Shown one piece after another: positions 3,301-64,000 of a stretch of DNA of 64,000 nt. Every line of letters starts with the position of its first letter. Position 1 is the first letter of the stretch. A program made the position numbers and the translations under genes. Where the stretch lies: NCBI RefSeq assembly GCF_002113885.1, contig NW_018408864.1, positions 1,095,718-1,159,717 of the forward strand. The letters run 5' to 3'. Below the pieces are notes generated by a model. That model was not told the origin of the DNA and did no database searches. It saw nothing but the letters and a program-made list of their open reading frames with translations. The DNA comes from Mizuhopecten yessoensis (Eukaryota).

Positions 3301-6300
3301 CCTGCTTCGACCGAAGTTGAGGGTGAATAGTATCCGAATCGCTCTTGCGCATGTCCTAGCCTACTGATTGTGGTTTCCGGAGTATAAACGTGTATCTCGG
3401 CCACGTTCTCAAGATTGGGCATGAAGCTTTGTATGACGGAGCGTCGAATCCTATTTAACGATAACAATGTCACCTCGAATTCACCTTTGACCTCGACTAC
3501 TAAAACAATGGCTTTTGCAGAATATATCGGCTGCTGTTTCGTGACCTGGCATACAATTCCACATGTAGGGTACATCATGGGGAGGCGGTATGTCGTATCC
3601 TAAAACAAAATTACTGCGACCTTAAGTTGACCTTTGACCTTGAACTAAACTACATTGTGTATTGAAACTAACTTCCAAATTACAGCATAATAAAGATTTG
3701 CACAACATATCTCCTCCTCTGTTTCATGAGTGGCCTTCAAAGCTTTTAGAAAAGCGAGGATCGAGGGGTATCCAGGAAGCCCTAACTTGGAGTTATATCT
3801 AGTTTTGTATTAAATTCATGAATGTTCGTAATGAATTGCTGATTCATTTATAATTTTCGCTCATCAAGTATTAATTGTTTGAATGGGTTGAAGTGATCGA
3901 TACATGTAACAATAGACTTTCAAGTCCAAGACAAGTGTCGATTATTTTATTCAGCTATTTGTAGACTCTACTTATATTTCTTTTGTAGATAACTATGAAA
4001 AACCTGTATTTGAATACATATATTTCCTATTCGTGACCTCGTGTAACAAAATCTAAGTGGAAAACTAGAAAATAATCATTCACAAAGTATACTATATATG
4101 TATGTCTCCTTTCAGGAGTCAATGAACCGAACAATGTTGGTGTGAATAACATCGCACTGCCGAGTCCACGAAAAGTGTCAAATGTTGCAATGAGGGACGA
4201 AACTGATGAGGAGACACCCAACGACCCGACGAGGACAATTATGATGGCCATCTTTGGTCAATTTATTGACCACGACATCACCGAGACACCGCAGTCTAAA
4301 AGTACTATATAATGCTATCTGTGATACGTTGTGTAACAACACTATCTAAAGCTAGCTTCATTGAGGCACTGTCCCCTCCCGTTAGTTCACTGTCCCCTCC
4401 CGTAAGTTCACTGTCCCCTCCAGTTAGTTCACTGTCCCCTCCCGTAAGTTCACTGTCCCCTCCAGTTAGTTCACTGTCCCTTCCCCGTTAGTTTACTGTC
4501 CCCTCCCGTTATTTCCCTGTCCCCTCCCGTTAGTTTACTGTCCCCTCCCGTTAGTTCACTGCCATCTCCCGTTAGTTTACTGTCCCCTCCCGTTATTTCA
4601 CTGTCCCCTCCCGTTAGTTCACTGTCCCCTCCAGTTAGTTCACTGTCCCCTCCAGTTAGTTTACTGTCCCGTCCCGTTAGTTCACTGTCCCCCCCCGTTA
4701 GTTCACTGTCCCCTCCAGTTAGTTCACTGTCCCCTTCAGTTAGTTTACTGTCCCTTCCCGTTAGTGCACTGTCCCCTCCCGTTAGTTCACTGTCCCTTCC
4801 CGTTAGTTTACTGTCCCCTCCAGTTAGTTCACTGTCCCTTCCCGTTAGTTTACTGTCCCTTCCCGTTAGTTTACTGTCCCTTCCCGTTAGTTTACTGTCC
4901 CTTCCCGTTAGTTCACTGCCCCCTCCCGTTAGTTTACTGTCCCTTCCCGGTAGTTTACTGTCCCCTCCCGTTAGTTTACTGTCCCCTCCCGTTAATTTAC
5001 TATCCCTTCCCGTTAGTTCACTGTCCCCTCCCGTTAGTTTACTGTCCCTTCCCGTTAGTTTACTGTCCCCTCCAGTTAGTTCACTGCGATCTCCCGTAAG
5101 TTCACCGTTAATTTACTGTTCCTTTCCGTGAGTTCACTTTCCCCTCCCGTTAGTTCACTATCCCCTCCCGTTAGTTTACTGTCCCTTCCTGTTAGTTTAC
5201 TGTCCCCTCCCGTTAGTTCGCTGTCCCCTCCCGTTAGTTCACTGTCCCCTCCAGTTAGTTCACTGCCATCTCCCGTAAGTTCACCGTTAATTTACTGTTC
5301 CTTTCCGTTAGTTCACTGTCCCCTCCCGTTAGTTCACTGCCGTCTCCCGTAAGTTCACTGTCCTCTCCCGTTAGTTCACTGCCTCCTCCCGTTATTTCAC
5401 TGTCCCCTCCCGTTAGTGCACTGTCCCTTCCCGTTAGTTTACCGTTCCCTTCCCGTGAGTTCACTGTCCCCCCCCCTGTTAGTTCACTGTCCCCTCCCGT
5501 TAGTTCTCTTTCCCCTCCCGTTAGTTCACTGTCCCCTCCCGTTAGTTTACTGCCCCCTCCCGTTAGTTTACTGCCATCTCCCGTTAGTTTACTGTCTCCT
5601 CCCGTTAGTCCACTGTCCCCTCCCGTTAGGTTACTGTCCCCTCCCGTTTGTTTTCTGTCCCCTCCCGTTAGTTCAATGTCCCCTCCCGTTAGTTCCCTGC
5701 CCCCTCCAGTTAGTTCACTGCCGTCTCCCGTAAGTTCACTGCCCCCTCCCGTTTGATTACTGTCCCCTCCCGTTAGAACATTGTCCCTTCCCGTTAGTTC
5801 ACTGTACCCTCCCGTTAGATTACTGTCCCCTCCCGTTAATTCACTGTCCCTTCCCGTTCGTTTACCGTTCCCTTCCCGTTAGTTCACCGTCCCCTCCCGT
5901 TAGTTTACTGACCCCTCCCGTTAGTTCACTGGCCCCTCCCGTTAGGTTACTGTCCCCTCCCGTTTGTTTACTATTCCTTTCCGTTAGTTTACTGTCCCTT
6001 CCCGTTAGTTCTCTGTCCCCTCCCGTTAGGTCACTGCCCTCTCCCGTAAGTTCACTGTCCTCTCCCGTTACTTCACTGCCTCCTCCCGTTATTTCACTGA
6101 CCCCTCCCGTTAGTTTACTGATCCTTCCCGTTAGTTCACTGCCCTCTCCCGTTAGTTCACTGCCCCCCCCCGTTAGTTTACTGTCCCTTAGTGCACTGTC
6201 CCTTCCCGTTAGTTCTCTGTCCCCTCCCGTTAGTTCGCTGTCCCCTCCCGTTAGTTTACTGTCCCGTCCCGTTAGTTCACTGTCCTCTCCCGTTAGTTCA

Positions 6301-9300
6301 CTGCCCCCCCCCGTTAGTTTACTGTCCCTCCCCTTAGTTCACTGTCCCCTCCAGATAGTTAACTGTCCCCTCCCGTTAGAACATTGTCCCTTCCCGTTAG
6401 TTCTCTGTCCTCTCCCGTTATTTCACTGCCCCCTCCCGTTAGTTTACTGCCATCTCCCGTAAGGGCACTGTCCCCTCCCGTTAGCTCCCGTTAGATTACT
6501 GTCCCTCCCCGTTAGTTCACTGCCATCTCCCGTAACTTCACTGTCCTCTCCCGTTACTTCACTGCCTCCTCCCGTTATTTCACTGACCCCTCCCGTTAGT
6601 TTACTGATCCTTCCCGTTAGTTCACTGCCCTCTCCCGTTAGTTCACTTCCTCCTCCCGTTATTTCACTGACCCCTCCCGTTAGTTTACTCCCGTTAGTTT
6701 ACTGTTCCTTTCCGTTAGCTCACTGTCCCCTCCCGTTAGAACATTGTCCCTTCCCGTTAGTTCTCTGTCCCCTCCCGTTAGTTCAATGTCCCCTCCCGTT
6801 AGTTCCCTGCCATCTCCCGTAAGGTCACTGGCCCCTCCCGTTAGTTCTCTGTCCCCTCCCGTTAGGTCACTGTTCCCTCCCGTTAGATCACTGTCCCTTC
6901 CCGTTAGTGCACTGTCCCTTCCCCTTAGTTTACTGTCCCCTCCAGTTGGTTCACTGTCCCCTCCCGTAAGTCCACTGGGCCCTCCCGTTAGTTCACTGGC
7001 ATCTCCCGTTAGTTTACTGTCCCGTCCCGTTAGTTCACTGCCACCTCCCGTAAGGTCACTGTCCCATCCCGTTAGTTCACTGTCCCTTCACGTTAGTTCA
7101 CTGTCCACTCCCGTTAGTTCACTGCCATCTACCGTAAGGTCACTGTCCCCTCCCATTAGCTCACTGTCCCCTCCCGTTAGTCCACTGCCATCTCCCGTAA
7201 GTTCACTGTCCCCTCCCGCTCGTTTACTGTTCCTTTCCGTTAGTTTACTGTCCCCCGTAAGTTCACTGTCCCCTCCCGATAGTTCAATGTCCCCTCCCGT
7301 TAGTTTCCTGTCCCTTCCCGTTATTTCACTGTCCCGTCCCGTTAGTTTACTGTCCCTCCCCGTTAGTTCACTGTCCCTCCCGTTAGTTGACTGTCCCCTC
7401 CCGTTAGTTTACTGACCCCTCCCGTTAGTTTACTGACCCCTCCCGTTAGTTTACTGACCCCTCCCGTTAGTTTACTTTCCCCTCCCGTTAGTTTCCTCTC
7501 CCCTCCCGTTAGTTTTCTGTCCCCTCCCGTTTGTTTTCTGTCCCCTCCCGTTTGTTTACTATTCCTTTCCGTTAGTTTACTTTCCCCTCCCGTTAGTTTA
7601 CTGATCCTTCCCGTTAGTTCACTGTCTCCTCCCGTTAGTCCACTGTCCCCTCCCGTTAGAACATTGTCCCTTCCCGTTAGTTCTCTGTCCCCTCCCGTTA
7701 GGTTACTGTCCCCTCCCGTTTGTTTTCTGTCCCCTCCCGTTTGTTTACTATTCCTTTCCGCTATTTTACTGTCCCCTCCCGTTCGTTCACTGCCATCTCC
7801 CGTAACTTCACTGTCCTCTCCCGTTAGTTCACTGCCCCCCCCCGTTAGTTTACTGTCCCTTAGTGCACTGTCCCTTCCCGTTTGTTTACCGTTCCCTTCC
7901 CGTTAGTTCACCGTCCCCTCCCGTTAGTTCAATGTCCCCTCCCGTTAGTTCCCTGCCATCTCCCGTAAGGTCACTGCCCCCTCCCGTTATTTCACTGTCC
8001 CCTCCCGTTTGGTCACTGTCCCCTCCCCTTAATTTACTGTCCCCTCCCGTTAGCTTACTGTCCCCTCCCGTTAGAACATTGTCCCTTCCCGTTAGTTCTC
8101 TGTCCTCTCCCGTTAGTTCACTGGCCCTTTCCGTTAGTTCACTGTCACTGTCCCCTCCCGTTAGGTTACTGTCCCCTCCCGTTTGATTACTGTCCCCTCC
8201 CGTTAGCTCCCGTTAGATTACTGTCCCTCCCCGTTAGTTCACTGCCATCCCCCGTAAGGTCACTGTCCCATCCCGTTAGTTTACTGTTCCTTTCCGTTAG
8301 TTTACTTTCCCCTCCCGTTAGTTCTCTTTCCCGTCCCGTTAGTTCACTGCCATCTCCCGTAAGGTCACTGGCCCCTCCCGTTAGGTTACTGTCCCTTCCC
8401 GTTAGTTTACCGCTCCCTTCCCGTGAGTTCACTGTCCCCCCCCAGTTCACTGTCCCCTCCCGCTTGATTACTGTCCCTTCCCGCTAGTTCACTGTCCCCT
8501 CCCCCGTTTGTTTACTGTTCCTTTCCGTTAGCTCACTGTCCCCTCCAGTTAGTTTACTGATCCTTTCCGTCAGTTCACTGTCCCCTCCCGTTAGTTCACT
8601 GCCATCTCCCGTAAGGTCACTGTCCCCTCCCGTTAGTTCACTGTCCCCTCCCGTTAGTTCACTGCCATCTCCCGTAAGTTCACTGTCCCCTCCCGTTAGT
8701 TCACTGCCATCCCCCGTAAGGTCACTGTCCCCTCCCGTTAGTTAACTGTCCCCTCCCGTTAGTTTAATGTCCCCTCCCGTTAGTTCACTATCCCCTCCAG
8801 CTAGTTCACTGTCCCCTCCCGTTAGTTCACTGCCATCCCCCGTAAGGTCACTGTCCCCTCCCGTTAGTTTACTGTCCCTTCCCGTTAATTCACTGTCCCC
8901 TCCCGTTAGTTCACTGTCCCTCCCGTTAGTTCACTGGCCCCCCCCGTTAGTTCACTGTCCCCTCCCGTTAGTTAACTGTCCCCTCCCGTTAGTTTAATGT
9001 CCCCTCCCGTTAGTTCACTATCCCCTCCAGTTAGTTCACTGTCCCCTCCCGTTAGTTCACTGCCATCCCCCGTAAGGTCACTGTCCCCTCCCGTTAGTTT
9101 ACTGTCCCTTCCCGTTAATTCACTGTCCCCTCCCGTTAGTTCACTGTCCTCTCCCGTTAGTTTACTGTCTCCTCCCGTTAGGTCACTGTCCCCGCCCGAT
9201 AGGCCACTGTCCCCTTTCGTTAGTTCACTGCCCCCTCTCGTTAGTTCACTGTCCACTCCCGTTAGTTTACTGTCTCCTCCCGTTAGTTCACTCTCCCCTC

Positions 9301-12300
9301 CCGTTAGGTCACTGTCCCCTTTCGTTAGTTCACTGCCCCCTCTCGTTAGTTCACTGTCCACTCCACTGTCCCCTCCCGCTAGTTCACTGTCCCCTCCCGT
9401 TAGTTTACTGATCCTTTCCTTCAGTTCACTGTCCCCTCCCGTTAGTTCACTGCCACCTCCCGTAAGGTCACTGTCCCCTCCCGTTAGTTCACTGTCTCCT
9501 CCCGTTAGTTCACTATCCCCTCCCGTTAGGTTACTGTCCCCTCCCGTTAGTTCACTGTCCCTCCCGTTAGTTCACTGGCCCCCCCCGTTAGTTCACTGTC
9601 CCCTCCCGTTAGATTACTGTACCTTCCCGTTAGTTCACTGTCCCCTCCCGTTAGTTTACTGATCCTTTCCTTCAGTTCACTGTCCCCTCCCGTTAGTTCA
9701 CTGCCATCACCCGTAAGTTCACTGTCCCCTCCCGTTAGTTTACTGTCTCCTCCCGTTAGTTTACTGTCCCCTCCCGTTAGTTCACTGCCCCCTCCCGTTA
9801 GTTCACTGTCCCCTCCCGTTTGATTACTGTCCCCTCCCGTTAGTTTACTGTCCCTCCCATTAGTTCACTGTCCCCTCCCGTTAGTTTACTGTCCATCCCA
9901 TTAGTTCACTGTCCCCTCCCGTTAGTTTACTGTCTCCTCCCGTTAGTTCACTGTCTCCTCCCGTTAGGTCACTGTCCCCTTTCGTTAGTTCACTGCCCCC
10001 TCTCGTTAGTTCACTGTCCACTCCCGTTAGTTTACTGTCTCCTCCCGTTAGTTCACTGTCCCCTCCCGTTAGTTCACTGTCCCTCCCGTTAGTTCCCTGT
10101 CCCCTCCCGTTAGTTCGCTGTCCCCTCCCATTAGTTCCCTGTCCACTCCCGTTAGTTTACTTTCTCCTCCCGTTAGTTCCCTGTCCCCTCCCCTTAGTTC
10201 ACTGTCCCCTTCCGTTAGTTTACTGTCCCTCCCATTAGTTCACTGTCCCCCCCCCTGTTAGTTCACTGTCCCCCCCCCCCCCGTTAGTTTACTGTCGCCT
10301 CCCGTTAGTTCACTATCCCCTCCAGTTAGTTCGTTAGTTCACTGTCCCTCCCGTTAGTTCACTTTCCCCACTCGTTAGTTCACTGCCCCCTCCCGGTAGT
10401 TTACTGTCTCCTCCCGTAAGTTCACTGTCCCTCCCGTTAGTTCACTTTCCCCACTCGATAGTTCACTGCCCCCTCCCGGTAGTTTACTGTCCCCTCCAGT
10501 TAGTTCACTGCCCCCCCCCGTTAGTTTACTGTCCCCTCCCGTTAGTTCACTGTCCCCTCCCATTAGTTCACTGTCCACTCTCGTTAGTTCACTGCCTCCT
10601 CCCGTTAGTTTACTGTCCCCTCCCGTTAGTTCACTGTCTCCTCCCGTTAGTTCACTGTCCCCTCCCGTTAGTTTACTGTCCCCTCCCATTAGTTCACTGT
10701 CCCCTCCCGTTAGTTCACTGTCCCCTTCCGTTAGTTTACTGTCCCCGCCCGTTAGTTTACTGTCCCCTCCCGTTAGTTCACTGTCCCCTTCCGTTAGTTT
10801 ACTGTCCCCGCCCGTTAGTTTACTGTCCCCTCCCGTTAGTTCACTGTCCCCTCCCATTAGTTCACTGTCCACTCCCGTTAGTTCACTGTCCCCTCCCGTT
10901 AGTTTAATGTCCCCTCCCGTTAGTTCACTATCCCCTCCAGTTAGTTCACTGTCCCCTCCCGTTAGGTCACTGTCCCCTTTCGTTAGTTCACTGCCCCCTC
11001 TCGTTAGTTCACTGTCCACTCCCGTTAGTTTACTGTCTCCTCCCGTTAGTTTACTGTCCCCTCCCGTTAGTTCACTGTCTCCTCCCGTTAGTTCACTGTC
11101 CCCTCCCGTTAGTTTACTGTCCCTTCCCGTTAGTTCACTGTCCCTCCCGTTAGTTCACTGTCCCCTCCCGTTAGTTCACTGTCCCTTCCCGTTAGTTCAC
11201 TGTCCCCTTCCGTTAATTACATCATTTTTACTTTAATTCGTACATAAATGTCATTATTTATGAAATAATCAACGTATGTGCGTATATTATGGTGGAATAT
11301 ATATATAACGATGGTGAGAAATATTGGAGAAAATTATTTTAAACAGTTGATTATTTTTCCAACATTTTCGAATCCCGAATTATATATTGCACCTCAATAT
11401 ACAAACAGATGTTGTTTATATCCATTGTAACAATTTAAAGGGAACATGTCTTGTCTACCTCAGTGTCTGTACACCTACCATATGCAAGGTGTCCTAGATA
11501 ATCTTATTATTCAAATAGGCTATTCTTTTGCGCGCGCTAACATTTGTCACGTGATGTCAATATGTCTCCATTTAACAACACGGTGAGCGTTTTTTTTTTA
11601 TCATTTGTGAACATGTGGGTAGTTGTCCTATTTTGTCTATTTATTCTGGATGTATTTGGGAACGATTTTTCATTTTCACAAACGATCAATAATAAACACT
11701 GACGTCATGCGTTATGCCAGATGTTTATTTCAATCAATCATATCCACTAATCAATTGACATCGGTCATCAACACATGAAATCAGCATTTGACAGATTTAC
11801 AAACTCCATTTCAAGTCATCATCGCGGTCAGTTCACCGGATAACTCTGGTCATGAGCTTGAAAGGTGTGAAATAAATCTAGAGGCTAGGCTAAATATATC
11901 ATTTTTGACCGCTACCAAATCTTTATATACACACAAAATTAAATGCGGGTACCATCATTCGATAAATGAAACCAGTCCCACCACTCGTTTGTTTACCGGT
12001 ACATTTAATTGCAGGGGCAGTTTTTGGAAGAGCGTTGGTCTGTTGGAAAATAATACATGTTTGCGCATGGTCTATCGTCCATGGTTATTAACCAATGAAA
12101 AGTGGCTTTAAACATGTGGTAGAGTTCTCGATAACATATCCACTCTTATGTCGTACGACATGTTCTTAACCATGGTGTCGTTATATAACGGTCATGGATG
12201 AATGCTAGGAGTGATGACGTAGTGTTGTATACCTATTCTAATTACAGTTATACGATCGAATGTATGATATGGGGAATGCCGCCTTAGAATCCAATTTTCA

Positions 12301-57890: not shown

Positions 57891-58169
57891 AAAATATGTA
57901 CTGTACAAACGTGGTCACTGAAGTGTATGATTCAATATATAAAATGCATCGGTAACTGCAATCCATACTGTGTGTATTAATCTTTCAGGTTTTTGTCCAT
58001 GATGATGTTTTTATATATGTACGGTATAGCATTTTGTTTCCTAAGTTATTAGCATTTTATGAGATTCCTAAGGTTAATGAAATTCAAGCCATACAAGAAT
58101 GCCTTTCTCACATTTTACTAGCATATAATGATAAATCGTATACGGAAAACAAAATCACGGCAAAAAATG

Positions 58170-58960
58170 AAAACAATGAGAAAATATCACTGTATATAAT
58201 GATAAGGTCGTAACATGTTATGAGAAAATATCACTGTATATAATGACAAAGTCGTATCATGTCATGAGAAAATATCACTGTATATAATGATAAATTCGTA
58301 TAATGTCATGAGAAAATATCACTGTATATAATGATAAAGTCGTATCATGTCACGAGAAAATATCACTGTATATAATGATAAAGTCGTATCATGTTATGAG
58401 AAAATATCACTGTATATAATGATAAAGTCGTATCATGTCATGAGAAAATATCACTGTATATAATGACAAAGTCGTATCATGTCATGAGAAAATATCACGG
58501 GCATAACATGACAAAATCGTATAATTTAATGAGAAAATATCACTGTATATAATAACACTATCATATAATTTAATGAAAAAAATCATGGTACATAATGACC
58601 AAGTCATATCAATTGTTCGGAAATATATCGATATGTAATGACAAAATCGTTACATTTAATGAGAAGATATCACGGAATATAATGATAAAATCATATTATG
58701 TAATTGTAAAGTATCACGGCATAAAATGACAAAATCGTATCATTTAATGAGAAAATGTCACGGTATATATTGACAAAATCGTAAAAAAATGGGAAAATAT
58801 CACGGTACATAATGACAAAATCGTATCAATTGATCGGAAAATATATCGATATATATTGACCAAATCATATAAAAAAAATGGGGAAAATGTCACGATATAT
58901 AATGAAAAATTAATATCATTTAATTGAAAATTATCATAGCATATAATGACAAAATATGAT
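58170..58960. repeat. 44-bp tandem array ATGAGAAAATATCACTGTATATAATGATAAAGTCGTATCATGTC, degenerating rightwards
   Basis: Visible. Confidence 0.9.
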
Positions 58961-60139
58961 AATATGATGTTTTTTTATATAGTACTATCACATCACTTTA
59001 TCTTTAATGTTTATCGTATAAGAACAGAATCCTTTCATTTACGTATACTTTAAAAGTTTTTTAAATTTTATTCCGCAGCGCCTAATTTACGTGCTAAAGC
59101 GGGAAATTTCGCAAGATTTTTTAAAGTCTTTCCGCAAATTTCAGGTCTAATGTCATGCACATATTGCTACGGTAGGAATCTGGTGAATTTTTGCTTATCA
59201 TGCATTATACCCCTATTATCGTAAATATCATGACAATTCGAACATCACGAAACAGTATTCTTTGATCATGAAAGCATACCATATCACTATGAAGACACAT
59301 CATTATAATGTTTCAATAAAGACAATTTGGACAAACAATTATCTTTACATTTAATTTAACAATACTTCGAGCCACTAAGCTACACGCGTCTCTATTTACC
59401 GCCGGTGTATTGTTGGACGTAGTTTGATAAAAAGATAAGATAAGATGTAAGATAAAAGACAAACATAATTTACATGAAACACGAACAAGGCTTAATGAAA
59501 AGCTATCGATGCGTAAAATGTTATTGATTTCACGAAGGTTATAGTCTAAACAAATTTCTTCCCTGAGTTACATTTTGTTTGTGTTTAGTATTCGTTTATT
59601 ATAAAAACTCACCAAGTGACTTCATTTGCTATCCGTAAATATCGTCATTAAGAAACTATAACAGAAATACGAGGAGGTTTATTGTGTAGTCTTTTCTGTT
59701 AAAGTTAAAGTTCTGTTAATCACATCCTTACAGTAGGACCCTGGATGTTTAATTGGGCAAATGTAACAAACGTCTGTGTACACGTAGAAAGTGGACCTAT
59801 TTTGTCGAGTGTTGGGTTAGTTCAAAACTGAATGAAGGTAAGTAAGTAGCAACGTGATCAAATGTTAACATTTTTTTCACGGTTCATTTTAAGATTATGC
59901 AGTTCGGAATATGTTGCATGAATTAGTTTTTGTATTTTTTAAAAACAATGAAAATATTAATGTATTATAAATTTTGCCTTATGTGAACATAGAACTGGGA
60001 AATATAGGAACAAATCTAATAAAACAAGGGTGACAGCAAAATAGAACAGAGTGATATATCTAAAGTAGAACTTGAGTGATATAGCCAAAAAATATGACAA
60101 TGGTTAAATAGCAAAATTAAATCCCAGGATTAAATCAAA

Positions 60140-60925
60140 ATGCTTCAAGTAAAATATGGTTGATATCCATCTCTTAGTTCCAGAGGAGAAGTCGCTTAAA
60201 GCAATATAGCCAAATCGATCCTTTTTGGCCCGCCTCTCAGCCCCCTCAGTCCCACCATTTGTACAATTTTGAATCCCCATTATCTAGGGTTGCTTCCAGT
60301 CAAATATGGTTGATGTCTATCTTTTAGTTGTAGAGAAGAAGGCGCTTAGAGCAATATAGCAAAATAACCCATTTTTGGCCCCGCCCCTCAGCCGACATGG
60401 GGGTGAGCCCCACCATTTGTGCAATTTTGAATCCCCATTACCTAGGGATGCTTCCAGTCAAATAAGGTTGATGTCCATCTTTTAGTTGTAGAGAAGAAGG
60501 CGCTTAGAGCAATATAGTCAAATTGATCCCTTTTGGCCCCGCCTCTCAGTCCACTTGAGGGTCAGCCACACCATTTGTACAATTTTCAATCCCCACTACC
60601 TAGGGATGCTTCCAGTCAAATATGGTTGATGTCCATCTTTTAGTTGTAGGGAAGAATGCGCTTAGAGTAATATAGCAAAATAACCCTTTTTGGCCCCGCC
60701 CCTAAGCAGACTTGAGGGTCAGCCCCACCATTTGTACAATTTTCAATCCCCACTACCTAGGGATGCTTCCAGTAAAATATGGTTGATATTCATTGCACAG
60801 TTCTACAGAAGAAGTTGTTTATAGCAATATAGCCAAATTGTCCCCTTTTGGCCCCGCCCCTCAGCCCCATGGGGTCGAGCCTCACTATTTGTACAATTTT
60901 TAATTTCCACTACCTAGGGATGCAG
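60140..60925. repeat. ~150-158-bp satellite-like units (5 copies), probably the core of a non-autonomous Helitron/Helentron-type element
   Basis: AAATATGGTTGAT...TTTTGGCCCCGCC...CTAGGGATGCTTCCAG recurs at about 60151, 60301, 60459, 60617 and 60774. The element affiliation is inference. Confidence 0.85.
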
Positions 60926-60936
60926 TACAATTATTG

Positions 60937-61246
60937 CTAGGGTAATGTAGTAAAAGTGTAACTAGGTAACGTAGTGAAATTATAACTAGAGCAATGTAGT
61001 GAAATTATAGCTAGGGTGATGTTGTGAAATTATAGCTAGAGTGATGTAGTAAATGAATAACTAGGGCGATGTTGTGAAATTATAGCCAGGGTAATGAAAT
61101 AAAAGTATAACTAGGGCGATGTAGTGAAATTACAGCTAGGGTGATATCGTAAAGGTATAACTAGTGCGATGTAGTGAAATTATAGCTAGGGTGATATCGT
61201 TAAAGTATAACTAGGGTGATATCGTGAAATTATATCAAGGGTAATT
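60937..61246. repeat. 25-bp tandem array CTAGGGTGATGTAGTGAAATTATAG (~12 copies)
   Basis: Visible. Confidence 0.9.
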
Positions 61247-61284
61247 ATGAGAAGTTCTTTTTCCACAACCAATACAATTTTCTA

Positions 61285-61336
61285 TGTGACGTTTCGATGA
61301 CTAGTACGATATGTACACTGTCACCTTCATCAGACA
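61285..61336 (-). ncRNA. Second minimal hammerhead-like motif on the opposite strand
   Basis: TGT-CTGATGA-A-GGTGAC-(18 nt)-GTCATC-GAAA-CG-TC-ACA; the stem II change keeps pairing as G-U. Confidence 0.55.
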
Positions 61337-61425
61337 AATGACCAATGAAGCGTATGCACACAAAGGTGTTACATGTGTTCGAGTTGTCCATAAAATCTTT
61401 GTGTGCATACGCTTCATTGGTCATT

Positions 61426-61477
61426 TGTCTGATGAAGATGACAGTGTGCATATTGTACTAGTCATCGAAACGTCACA
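61426..61477 (+). ncRNA. Minimal type I hammerhead ribozyme-like motif (Penelope type)
   Basis: TGT-CTGATGA-A-GATGAC-(18 nt)-GTCATC-GAAA-CG-TC-ACA. Confidence 0.55.
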
Positions 61478-62001
61478 TAGAAAATTTTATTGTATATCAG
61501 CCGTTCATACACGAGTCTATACCGCAATTATTTTAGATGACGATCTTGACAATATCTTATGCCCCATATCACAACGTCAACAAAATACGTTCTGTTTTAA
61601 ATTGTGACTTTTGTTGAGGAAAAAATCACCGAAACGCGAAAACGACTGAGACGAAGTCGCGTTCAGCTTTTTTAAGATCTTAATTGTTAAAAAAATATAA
61701 TAGTAATATGAAATTATGATGTTTGTATTATTAACCATGAAGGAACGTAGGACATTGTCAGGAGTAAGATAAGGCCGAACAACTATGACGTCACAGTTAA
61801 AGTTAAGTCATAATAGAATATGTATCTGTTCCTTTAAATGGGTGTATTCACGAGTCATCATCACAAATAACGGACCTCCATATGATCATTATCCAACTAA
61901 TTTAAATAAAATCAGCAAATGTAATCAAATTTCATAACACATGTTTTCTTGTTGTTTATTTATGTGATATATAAATCTAAATGCATCTTGTATCCTCAGT
62001 C

Positions 62002-62496
62002 ATGGCATCTAAATCCTTCATCCATTACCTTAGACGATACCGCTCCAGAAACGCGAGAATGTGGATTTTAATAGCGACGGCTGTAGGATCTTTTTTTCTT
62101 TTATTTCAACATCGTTACTCCGGAATCGTCCTAGTCGAACTAAGACCAACATCCTTCAATCGGACGTGGTGGGACGCGAAGTCCTATCCGGTACGTACGA
62201 CGGCATTGGTCCTATCCGGTACGTACGACGGCATTGGTCCTATCCGGTACGTAGGACGGCATTGGTCGGCTGTACACACTGAAACTCAACGATTTTAACA
62301 TTTTTATTGAAAACATTTTGTGGGGTATCAGATGACATCCATGTCAAATCCTCATTACCGGTACTCTTGCGTGTCAAACTTATATTAACCCCAGGAATCG
62401 TCACGAATATTAAAAATAGTTCTTACATGTACCTCGTTATATTATTTCCATTTTTGATATAATGTATCCATTACCAATTTTTTTGAGATGCAGTTG

Positions 62497-62532
<36 letters not shown>

Positions 62533-63910
62533 GTTCATCTATACATAAGGGTTATAGTAGTGTTTGACAGTGCGGAGACAGCGAGTCCTGCATTCATGTG
62601 AGAACACGTATAGCCAGAGTTTCCTCTGGCACTAACACCAGTGGGGCCTGTTGGTTTATGCGGAACAACCGGTTTGACCGTTTATAGATGTAAGAATTTT
62701 GAGTATAGTCTTGGCGAACCTGCAAATGTGTATGCAGGCCTTGCAAGGCTTTATCAAGGCTCGCCTGAAAGCAGCATCAGATTACTAGGTCCGACCTTAT
62801 TTAATAAACAAACAACAGTGGTCCGACCGGTTTGACCGTTTAAACGAAAACGGCCCAGACTTAAGACATTTTGACATATAGATGGCTGGTACACCAGCCG
62901 TCTTTATTTCAAAATGTCTAAGTCTGGTGTCAGGGCCAGAGGAAACTCGGGCTATGCTAGGTACAACAGTGACGTTGTTAATTATTTGTGTTATATTGCT
63001 TTCCGTTCACAGAAGGAATCTGCTTTTTCCCTGTGCTCTTCTGTTATCCCCACGAGACATAATGTAAGTTTGACCGGGAGCCTGAAGAAGACGATGGAGA
63101 TTGGTGACGGACCACCACCAGTCAGGGACAAGCTTTGTAGTATGTCATTCGAGGACCTGGAAATGTACTACCACACGTACGTACTGTTAAGGGGAGATAA
63201 TGCAAATTAATTAGACAACATAGACTGTCAGACTATCTATGAAACTAGATATTAGATCCTGGAATACCTAGCTATTCTTCATCACGATTGCAATATTTTT
63301 AAATCATGGAATTGCATAAATAAAATTACTATTGAACCAATCATAAATGCATAACATAATAATAATATTCATTTCTAAAATAGCAAATGAGGATTATTGA
63401 TGGTATGTTTCAGTATGTAGGAGTTTGGTCAAAGGGATTTACAAATATCCTCCTAAAAAGAGAGACAGCACCTAATCGTTACTAAACGAGGTCCGATTTG
63501 AAATTCCGATCACTGCTATGATATTCGTCATATCTAAAATGACGAAACGCCTGTATGTCGCAGTTGATTCATTTTTGACATACTGCATCAAATATCAAAT
63601 TGTACATACACAAGTCTATGTCAAACGTTCATCTGAAATGAAGTTCAGTCGTCATCGACGGGGCACCTCTCTTCTTTAACTGAGTAAGAATTTTGGAATG
63701 TTATTTGTAAATTTTAGACAAAATGTTACTTTTCTCAGCCGATGAACAATTATTTAGGTAATATACTTGTTGACTTCACAGGTACTTAAGTACGATCCAG
63801 CGACCCTGTAAACGGTCTGTGCGAATGGGACACACTATGGACGGCGGATGGGACGTGTGTGGTGAAGAATTTAAATATATACGGAACGAATGTCTTGTTT
63901 ACTCTTTTGG
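62002..63910 (+). CDS. METTL24: METTL24-like (Methyltransf_22/FkbM-related) type II membrane methyltransferase, 3'-truncated by the window
   Basis: Exons 62002-62190 (basic N-tail plus signal anchor MWILIATAVGSFFLLF), 63013-63176 and 63782-63910 (YLSTIQRPCKRSVRMGHTMDGGWDVCGEE...CLVYSFG); phases 0, 2, 2 are consistent. The symbol denotes family, not proven orthology. Start could be ATG 61981 instead. Confidence 0.82.
62181..62266. repeat. 28-bp x3 tandem repeat spanning the METTL24-like exon donor
   Basis: GTCCTATCCG|GTACGTACGACGGCATTG x3. Confidence 0.92.
62499..62529. repeat. (TG)n microsatellite
   Basis: Visible. Confidence 0.95.
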
Positions 63911-64000
63911 GTAAGTACCAGCGACGAGTCCTCGAAGGACGAAGCAGCTGTATGATGCAATGTGGTTCCGTTTTTGGCGTGCTGTATCTATTACAGAGTT

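What the first reader, a model, noticed from the sequence alone, without database searches (positions are those of the whole stretch)
61276..61486. Palindrome carrying a minimal hammerhead ribozyme motif on each strand, ~0.5 kb upstream of the METTL24-like start
Seen: both arms contain CUGAUGA-A-[6-bp stem II]-GAAA-CG-UC flanked by UGU/ACA, and the single stem II difference between arms preserves pairing (A-U versus G-U). Established: Penelope-like elements carry minimal type I hammerheads with a tiny palindromic stem III that works best as a dimer, and often have inverted terminal repeats. Inference: a solo inverted Penelope terminus. The predicted cut is after 61474 on the + strand. A read-through transcript would instead fold into a 90-bp hairpin that masks the ribozyme and could be a Dicer or ADAR substrate.
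Basis: partly seen in the sequence, partly recalled or inferred. Interest (0 to 1): 0.7.

Follow-up and report, generated by a model that had tools for sequence, protein, structure and literature searches.

The report
Back-to-back Penelope stump in an intron
This mirror-image stretch is a short stump of a very common Penelope-type jumping gene, two copies of its end joined back to back inside an intron of a likely methyltransferase gene, and its two predicted self-cutting RNA motifs are likely silent passengers, so the finding is ordinary.

Summary
Observation confirmed, with corrections. The insert is 61244-61492 (249 bp): two opposite, 5'-truncated ends (pLTRs) of a Penelope/Poseidon-type retrotransposon, each with a minimal hammerhead (predicted cuts after 61474 on +, 61288 on -). 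The family has at least 824 motif copies (control 2). Longer copies carry RT, then a GIY-YIG endonuclease, and a 34-36-nt tail; 50 of 98 tail-bearing copies have an adjacent inverted piece, so this palindrome is the short end of a published insertion form.

Corrections: it is not upstream of the gene. Six RNA reads splice 59837 to 62000, which puts it in a 5'-UTR intron. The A-U/G-U difference is a private change, not covariation. Either read-through strand is predicted to mask the ribozyme. No editing or locus-specific RNA was seen, at thin depth.

Family data favour both arms being copied from one source, primed at both DNA nicks (arms agree at 83 of 99 subfamily sites; 59% when shuffled). 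Truncation ends show no peak at the predicted cut (4 vs 4.6 expected), though very short fold-backs ending just 3' of it are enriched (5 of 36 vs 1.0). The scan has noted this architecture in at least 45 genomes.

The parts
61244..61492 (.). Whole insertion, 249 bp: head-to-head pair of 5'-truncated Penelope pLTR ends
   Evidence: Family match begins at 61244 and ends at 61492 across genomic copies
61244..61397 (-). Left arm, 154 nt, pLTR positions -153 to 0 (0 = the family's usual tail-less end); no tail
   Evidence: 96-98% identical to single copies; projection on a natural copy
61397..61492 (+). Right arm, 96 nt, pLTR positions -121 to -26; lacks the last 26 nt and the tail; shares one base (61397) with the left arm
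   Evidence: junction read
61426..61477 (+). Minimal type I hammerhead motif, predicted cut after 61474
   Evidence: features match the min-HHR description of PMC4209133
61285..61336 (-). Minimal type I hammerhead motif, predicted cut after 61288 (family-majority stem II)
61366..61396 (-). Single-copy pLTR sequence (-152 to -122) that forms the hairpin loop region
   Evidence: matches family sequence upstream of the hammerhead
61231..61243 (+). Left copy of a probable target-site duplication (first 7 nt exact, 9 of 13 alike); end of a 25-bp tandem array
61493..61505 (+). Right copy of the probable target-site duplication, abutting the right arm
59838..61999 (+). GT-AG intron in the 5' UTR of the host gene; holds the insertion
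   Evidence: 6 RNA reads join an exon ending 59837 to 62000
62000..62190 (+). First coding exon (ATG 62002) of the host gene, likely METTL24-like; approximate 3' end
   Evidence: RNA reads cover it and 3 splice on to about 63013; two later exons hit Methyltransf_22 weakly, E 0.0055 and 0.016, below Pfam's cut-off

Best explanation
This is one dead insertion of a Penelope/Poseidon-type retrotransposon in a host intron, made of two short copies of the element's end joined head to head, likely built when the element's enzyme primed reverse transcription at both nicked DNA strands and both copies stopped early; its two predicted hammerheads are inherited parts of that end and are likely inactive here. 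Shown: family identity, RT-endonuclease ORF in longer copies, tail, target-site duplications in relatives, intronic position. Inferred: two priming events on one RNA or on RNAs of one source locus, joined at a 1-nt overlap. In this copy one arm began at the usual site (0) and the other at an unusual site (-26), leaving no tail. The ribozyme's job, if any, belongs to the RNA of full-length tandem elements, where two motifs lie on one strand. Here the two motifs lie on opposite strands and each is transcribed after its own antisense copy, so it is predicted to be masked.
For: Repeat family with 2074 first-look candidates and 824 exact core motifs against 2 controls. Upstream ORF pieces hit RVT_1 (best E 2e-6) and GIY-YIG (E 6e-4), both under Pfam's curated cut-offs, and have 188 relatives at E<=1e-30, the best about 63% identical, many of 700-850 aa, from amphioxus, clam, brittle star and fish. 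L097 is a full-size though broken copy: inverted 34-nt end, pLTR with hammerhead, tail running into the ORF start, RT, endonuclease, second pLTR and tail. Tail junction in 282 copies, control 0. Of 98 tail-selected copies that aligned (100 examined), 50 have an adjacent inverted piece and 36 of the 50 end within -3 to +9 of the pLTR end; 17 of 36 tight pairs keep a whole hammerhead in both arms. Flanking duplications of 6-20 nt in 34 of 59 head-to-head pairs, 23 of them 10 nt or more. Arms agree at 83 of 99 subfamily-site comparisons against 59% shuffled (p 0.0005) and share 19 of 302 rare variants against 1.1%. Either arm can reach further 5' (tail arm 13, tail-less arm 21, ties 2 of 36), which a one-way fold-back does not predict. 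In vitro a Poseidon protein cuts and extends both strands from two start sites that bound the tail (PMC11167929). Masking.
Against: This copy is atypical: no tail on either arm, the right arm ends at -26, and the duplication is exact for only 7 nt, so later deletion cannot be excluded. Arm agreement could also come from gene conversion between inverted arms. Sites -32/-31 disagree between arms as often as at random (48 of 82 vs 0.53, p 0.12), which one template does not explain. No intact ORF was found in the copies read. Hammerhead cores are not significantly better kept than the rest of the pLTR (27 of 936 vs 408 of 10045 changes, p 0.08). Cleavage was not tested, and RNA depth at the locus was thin (31 reads laid).
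Confidence: 0.86

Rival explanations
1. Same element, but the palindrome arose by self-priming (fold-back) of one cDNA or antisense RNA, as proposed by Arkhipova et al. 2013, with nuclease trimming setting the second end.
For: Explains arm agreement and 1-15-nt overlaps at many junctions. The shortest symmetric fold-backs are centred on an AAAATTTT-like palindrome. Proposed in PMC3846280 (passages).
Against: Both polarities of arm length occur (13 vs 21 of 36). A cDNA begun at site 0 cannot supply the tail by folding back. This window's junction has only 1 nt of overlap.
Confidence: 0.2
2. The palindrome is a non-autonomous fold-back element (MITE-like or a self-amplifying mini-retrozyme) that spreads as a unit.
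For: Many 200-330-bp palindromes exist; L108 and L161 share one junction on different contigs.
Against: Junctions and arm lengths differ from copy to copy, total length 106-970 nt in 36 tight pairs and up to 3.3 kb with ORF sequence inside. Ends are asymmetric (tail on one side), and duplications vary in length.
Confidence: 0.04
3. The intronic hairpin has been taken up by the host as a dsRNA (siRNA, ADAR, or splicing) regulator of the methyltransferase-like gene.
For: It lies in a transcribed intron. The right junction is on one unbranched contig in 5 of 5 DNA runs laid (2 of 5 with 31 or more letters on both sides) and no empty allele was seen. Penelope inverted repeats give siRNAs in transgenic flies (PMC3681739, passages).
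Against: No reads on intron 61500-61967 in the raw RNA run; reads on the arm carry family alleles and family flanks, so they come from other copies; no RNA-only A>G site. About 3% divergence from the family majority is what a fairly young neutral copy would show.
Confidence: 0.07
4. The + strand hammerhead cuts the host pre-mRNA after 61474.
For: Core boxes intact; a constrained hammerhead fold is possible in the isolated motif (-11.7 kcal/mol).
Against: No stem III without a same-strand partner; the isolated motif prefers an inactive fold (-17.6) and stem II has probability 0.0 in the full hairpin; single min-HHRs showed no cleavage in vitro (PMC4209133); no pile-up of read ends (thin).
Confidence: 0.03

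Closest known systems
EN+ Penelope-like elements with a head-to-head inverted pLTR, optional 30-40-bp tail and TSD (Pen2a_Av and others, PMC3846280; general scheme in PMC8557442 Fig. 2 legend; passages read)
   Same: Inverted 5'-truncated pLTR, tail at one end in relatives, variable TSD, pLTR/tail running into the ORF start, head-to-head polarity.
   Different: This copy has no ORF sequence and no tail on either arm; the right arm ends 26 nt early.
Minimal hammerheads (min-HHR) of metazoan PLEs (PMC4209133; parts 1-2 of 4 read)
   Same: Core boxes, extra nucleotide between 9 and 10.1, G10.1-C11.1, long helix II, short helix I, palindromic 15.2-16.2. The paper already reports dual min-HHRs 100-700 bp apart on opposite strands, read as truncated PLEs.
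   Different: Helix I is 3 bp (5 with one U-U mismatch) against 4-5 bp described for Schistosoma; activity untested here.
Poseidon of Anolis carolinensis, PAc (PMC11167929; parts 1-2 of 4 read)
   Same: RT then GIY-YIG, hammerhead in the pLTR, two end points bounding the tail.
   Different: In PAc the ORF starts at stem II; here the likely ORF start lies in the tail, about 70 nt after the predicted cut.
Non-LTR retrozymes (10.64898/2026.07.22.740005; part 1 of 5 read)
   Same: Non-coding, type I hammerhead, pLTR-related.
   Different: Retrozymes are head-to-tail tandem units; this is a head-to-head pair.

Membership tests
EN+ Penelope-like element (family of this insert) | Single ORF with RT followed by C-terminal GIY-YIG endonuclease | tested here: met
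   ORF pieces in order in L097 and other copies; RVT_1 E 2e-6 and GIY-YIG E 6e-4, below curated cut-offs; DKG motif and about 63% identity to 750-830-aa relatives. No uninterrupted ORF found.
EN+ Penelope-like element (family of this insert) | Direct pLTRs flanking the ORF | tested here: met
   L097: two same-strand pLTRs about 2.17 kb apart
EN+ Penelope-like element (family of this insert) | Optional 30-40-bp tail at one end | tested here: met
   34-36 nt; 282 copies, control 0; absent from this particular copy
EN+ Penelope-like element (family of this insert) | Inverted 5'-truncated copy adjacent to the insert; variable TSD | tested here: met
   50 of 98 tail-selected copies; duplications in 34 of 59 pairs; in this copy 7 nt exact, 9 of 13
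Penelope/Poseidon clade | CCHH motif in the endonuclease; no CX2-5CxxC linker between RT and endonuclease | tested here: met
   Cys-x2-Cys between the GIY and YIG equivalents in L036 and in 4 of 5 relatives (x3 in the fifth), second Cys changed in L038; later His residues kept; no Cys-rich linker (criteria)
Penelope/Poseidon clade | RT phylogeny with named reference elements | not tested
   No named PLE reference proteins were fetched; clade rests on motifs
min-HHR of metazoan PLEs | Core boxes, extra base at 9/10.1, G10.1-C11.1, palindromic stem III remnant | tested here: met
   824 vs 2 genomic matches
min-HHR of metazoan PLEs | Covariation or selection on stems and core | tested here: inconclusive
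   Core 2.9% vs rest 4.1% changed, p 0.08; none of 9 subfamily-variable sites falls in the core or stems; copies too alike for covariation
min-HHR of metazoan PLEs | Self-cleavage as a dimer or with element protein | not testable with these tools
   Needs an in vitro assay
Rfam hammerhead families | Match to a curated covariance model | tested here: not met
   No hammerhead hit at E up to 10; the motif has no stem III
Non-LTR retrozyme | Head-to-tail tandem units each with a hammerhead | tested here: not met
   Two motifs on opposite strands; no tandem copy in 58000-64000
MITE / fold-back DNA transposon | Fixed length, symmetric terminal repeats, fixed TSD | tested here: not met
   Lengths 106-970 nt, asymmetric ends, TSD 6-20 nt

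The most novel reading that the evidence does not exclude
The shortest palindromes of this family, whose two arms both stop within about 12 nt 3' of the predicted cut, are double run-off copies of a ribozyme-cut RNA. The genome would then hold a fossil record that a minimal Penelope hammerhead cleaves in the germ line and that one RNA is copied from both DNA nicks.
Probability: 0.25. Interest if true: 0.55.

Novelty: new member of a known kind. Interest (0 to 1): 0.2.

Why it matters
This copy matters little: it is one of hundreds, and the opposite-strand pair of minimal hammerheads and the inverted pLTR are both in print. The family is a usable data set for two open points in Penelope biology. 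One is how the inverted arm is made; the data here lean to two priming events on one source. The other is whether minimal hammerheads cut in vivo: PMC4209133 and PMC11167929 report low or protein-dependent activity, and the latter found no RNA ends at the cut. The evidence here on that second point is mixed.

Tried and rejected
Rfam: only microRNA-precursor models hit the long hairpin, all below gathering score; no hammerhead model hit. Treated as hairpin artefacts.

Promoter or upstream-element reading: dropped once spliced reads placed the insert in an intron.

A-U/G-U as covariation: rejected (G in 74 of 74 tail-selected copies; a pair-breaking T also occurs, whose counts include duplicate loci).

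RNA editing: A>G at 61438 and T>C at 61417 are in the DNA runs as well. An A>C at 61482 in 3 RNA reads is also a minor DNA allele.

Pile-up of 5' truncations at the predicted cut: not found (4 vs 4.6 expected in -47..-39, 138 ends). Wider windows chosen after seeing the data were enriched: -48..-31, 16 vs 7.1; -110..-85, 23 vs 10.4; -258..-249, 7 vs 2.5.

Purifying selection on the core among dead copies: not significant (p 0.08).

Intact autonomous ORF: none in the 16 loci scanned for long ORFs or the 10.

RNA-guessed contigs X11 (61712-62043) and X13 (61918-62027) enter the intron but stop short of the insert and may be DNA; not used.

Reads were laid on the right arm and downstream only, so the left junction was not examined.

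A search for Penelope plus twin priming gave 3 papers whose titles and abstracts concern telomerase RNA, human elements and L1 (listing only). Supplements of the papers were not read and may hold mollusc min-HHR examples.

Full report
Observation. The inverted repeat is real: arms 61270-61371 and 61391-61492, 102 nt, 94% complementary, folding at -162.5 kcal/mol with 0 of 200 shuffles as stable. Each arm carries the motif described. On + the core runs from C3 at 61429 to C17 at 61474, on - from 61333 to 61288. It has the extra base after A9, a G-C closing pair, a 6-bp basal stem II with a further 4-5-bp stem above it, the self-complementary ACGU in place of stem III, and a 3-bp stem I. These match the minimal hammerhead of metazoan Penelope-like elements in PMC4209133, which also reports dual motifs 100-700 bp apart on opposite strands (parts 1-2 of 4 read). 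Rfam gave no hammerhead hit. The core pattern has 824 matches in the genome against 2 for the reversed control.

What it belongs to. A search of the genome with the palindrome gave 2074 candidates, 40 scored. Homology stops sharply at window 61244 and 61492. In single copies the sequence upstream of the arm is the end of an ORF. Pieces of it hit RVT_1 (best E 2e-6) and GIY-YIG (E 6e-4), both below Pfam's curated cut-offs. The RT piece has 188 relatives at E<=1e-30, the best about 63% identical, in amphioxus, clam, brittle star and fish. The endonuclease has the Cys pair and His residues of the CCHH motif and no Cys-rich linker, which by the criteria in PMC8557442 (passages) points to Penelope/Poseidon; no tree was built. 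L097 is a full-size, broken copy: a 34-nt inverted end, a pLTR of about 257 nt with the hammerhead, a tail that runs into the likely ORF start, RT, endonuclease, then a second pLTR with tail. The pLTR-tail junction occurs 282 times, control 0. I found no uninterrupted ORF.

How such palindromes sit in the family. I took the 100 listed of the 282 tail-bearing copies, chosen without regard to the hammerhead; 98 aligned. Fifty have an inverted piece next to their 5' end, and 36 of those 50 end at the tail-less pLTR end; the script missed at least two short ones (L054, L159). Among 59 head-to-head pairs in the first 136 loci, 34 have a flanking duplication of 6-20 nt, 23 of them 10 nt or more; the short ones may include chance. 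Lengths run from about 100 bp to 3.3 kb. Of 36 tight pairs (after dropping 2 duplicated loci, gaps over 30 nt and inverted pieces ending before -40), 17 keep a whole hammerhead in both arms. This is the structure drawn for EN+ elements in PMC3846280 and PMC8557442 (passages). The window's insert is therefore an ordinary short member. Its left arm covers pLTR -153..0 and its right arm -121..-26, sharing one base at 61397. Its quirks are no tail, an early right end, and a duplication exact for 7 nt (61231-37 and 61493-99), 9 of 13 over the usual length. The duplication abuts the short end, which suggests that end was set at insertion (inference).

Mechanism. In 47 pairs (40 tail-selected, one of them a duplicate locus, plus 7) the arms agree at 83 of 99 comparisons at seven subfamily sites against 59% shuffled (p 0.0005), and share 19 of 302 rare variants against 1.1%. 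With the two sites at -32/-31 included the figure is 131 of 181 against 56%; those two alone are not concordant (48 of 82, p 0.12). So both arms mostly come from one source, unless gene conversion made them alike. The tail arm reaches further 5' in 13 pairs, the tail-less arm in 21, with 2 ties; a single one-way fold-back would give one polarity. A purified Poseidon protein cuts and extends both target strands from two start sites that bound the tail (PMC11167929, parts 1-2 of 4). The simplest reading, inferred and not shown, is two priming events at the staggered nicks, each cDNA stopping early, joined with little or no overlap (29 of 39 junctions within 6 nt of flush). Self-priming, proposed in PMC3846280, remains a rival. 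This two-nick reading and the cut-site test were prompted by earlier scan notes.

Does the ribozyme act? At this locus, probably not. In a head-to-head pair each motif is transcribed after its own antisense copy; stem II has probability 0.0 in the + transcript, and even the isolated motif prefers an inactive fold, -17.6 against -11.7 kcal/mol. There is no same-strand partner for the dimer. The A at 61438 is private (G in 74 of 74). Cores are not significantly better kept than the rest (p 0.08), though none of the 9 subfamily-variable sites is in the core or stems. For the family in vivo the record is mixed. There is no excess of 5' ends at the predicted cut (4 vs 4.6 of 138 ends). Seven ends fall at -258..-249 (2.5 expected), which may mark the RNA start and uncut templates. 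Five of 36 pairs have both arms ending at -48..-31 (1.0 expected, p 0.0002, window chosen after the fact). That class could be run-off from cut RNA, stalling at the folded motif, or fold-back at a local AAAATTTT palindrome; I cannot separate these.

Host context. In one raw RNA run (about 19% read, 31 reads laid), 6 reads join 62000 to sequence that maps exactly at 59806-59835, before a GT at 59838. The insert thus lies in a 2162-nt 5'-UTR intron, 507 nt before the acceptor. Two later exons hit Methyltransf_22 weakly; the link of that family to METTL24 is recalled. No read lay on 61500-61967. Reads on the arm carry family alleles and family flanks on both strands, so the family is transcribed but this copy was not seen. 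No RNA-only A>G change appeared. Five of five DNA runs have one contig across the right junction (2 with 31 or more letters on both sides; one run may be the assembled sample) and no empty allele. A dsRNA role is not excluded, since Penelope inverted repeats yield siRNAs in flies (PMC3681739, passages), but nothing here supports it.

Verdict. It is a new member of a known kind, noted by this scan in at least 45 genomes and once as a hammerhead-bearing Penelope remnant in this genome. Interest 0.2.

Noticed in passing
family pLTR positions -32/-31 (window 61275-61276 and 61486-61487): Hypervariable dinucleotide (TG, GT, TT, CT) that differs between the two arms of one insertion as often as between random arms, unlike other subfamily sites; the GT form repeats a 10-mer in the tail. 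Unexplained.
   Followed up: partly
L048, L054, L058, L150, L159, L177, L179: Class of 100-125-bp fold-backs whose arms both stop just 3' of the predicted hammerhead cut.
   Followed up: partly
L067, L071, L072, L143, L173, L191, L202: 5' ends cluster at pLTR -250 to -257, a possible transcription start.
   Followed up: partly
L108 (C29) and L161 (C1896); L047 (C1008) and L059 (C3367): Copies on different contigs share the same junction or flanks: duplicated segments, haplotigs or re-mobilised units.
   Followed up: no
L122:1501-1543: A different sequence with the same minimal hammerhead core and another stem II, so likely a second family.
   Followed up: no
family tail, antisense strand (e.g. 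L028:1655-1690): Reads like a splice acceptor followed 4 nt later by a strong donor (GTAAGT); could affect host introns when antisense.
   Followed up: no
window 60140-60925: Five copies of a 158-bp tandem repeat in the same intron.
   Followed up: no
window 60920-61243 and 58130-58980: 25-bp and 44-bp tandem arrays; the insertion sits at the very end of the 25-bp array.
   Followed up: no
window 62610-62955: Small element with 32-nt inverted ends and an inner 27-nt palindrome, in the next intron; part of it also matches L019, so a dispersed MITE-like repeat.
   Followed up: no
window 62181-62267: Three 28-bp tandem copies that begin inside the first coding exon and duplicate its splice-donor region.
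   Followed up: no
window 4000-12000: GC-rich block (46-54%) with strong GC and AT skew (to -0.5), probably a long tandem or repetitive coding stretch.
   Followed up: no
L098:5086-6138: 351-aa ORF that looks like the RNase H end of a LINE-type element (by eye) next to a family copy.
   Followed up: no
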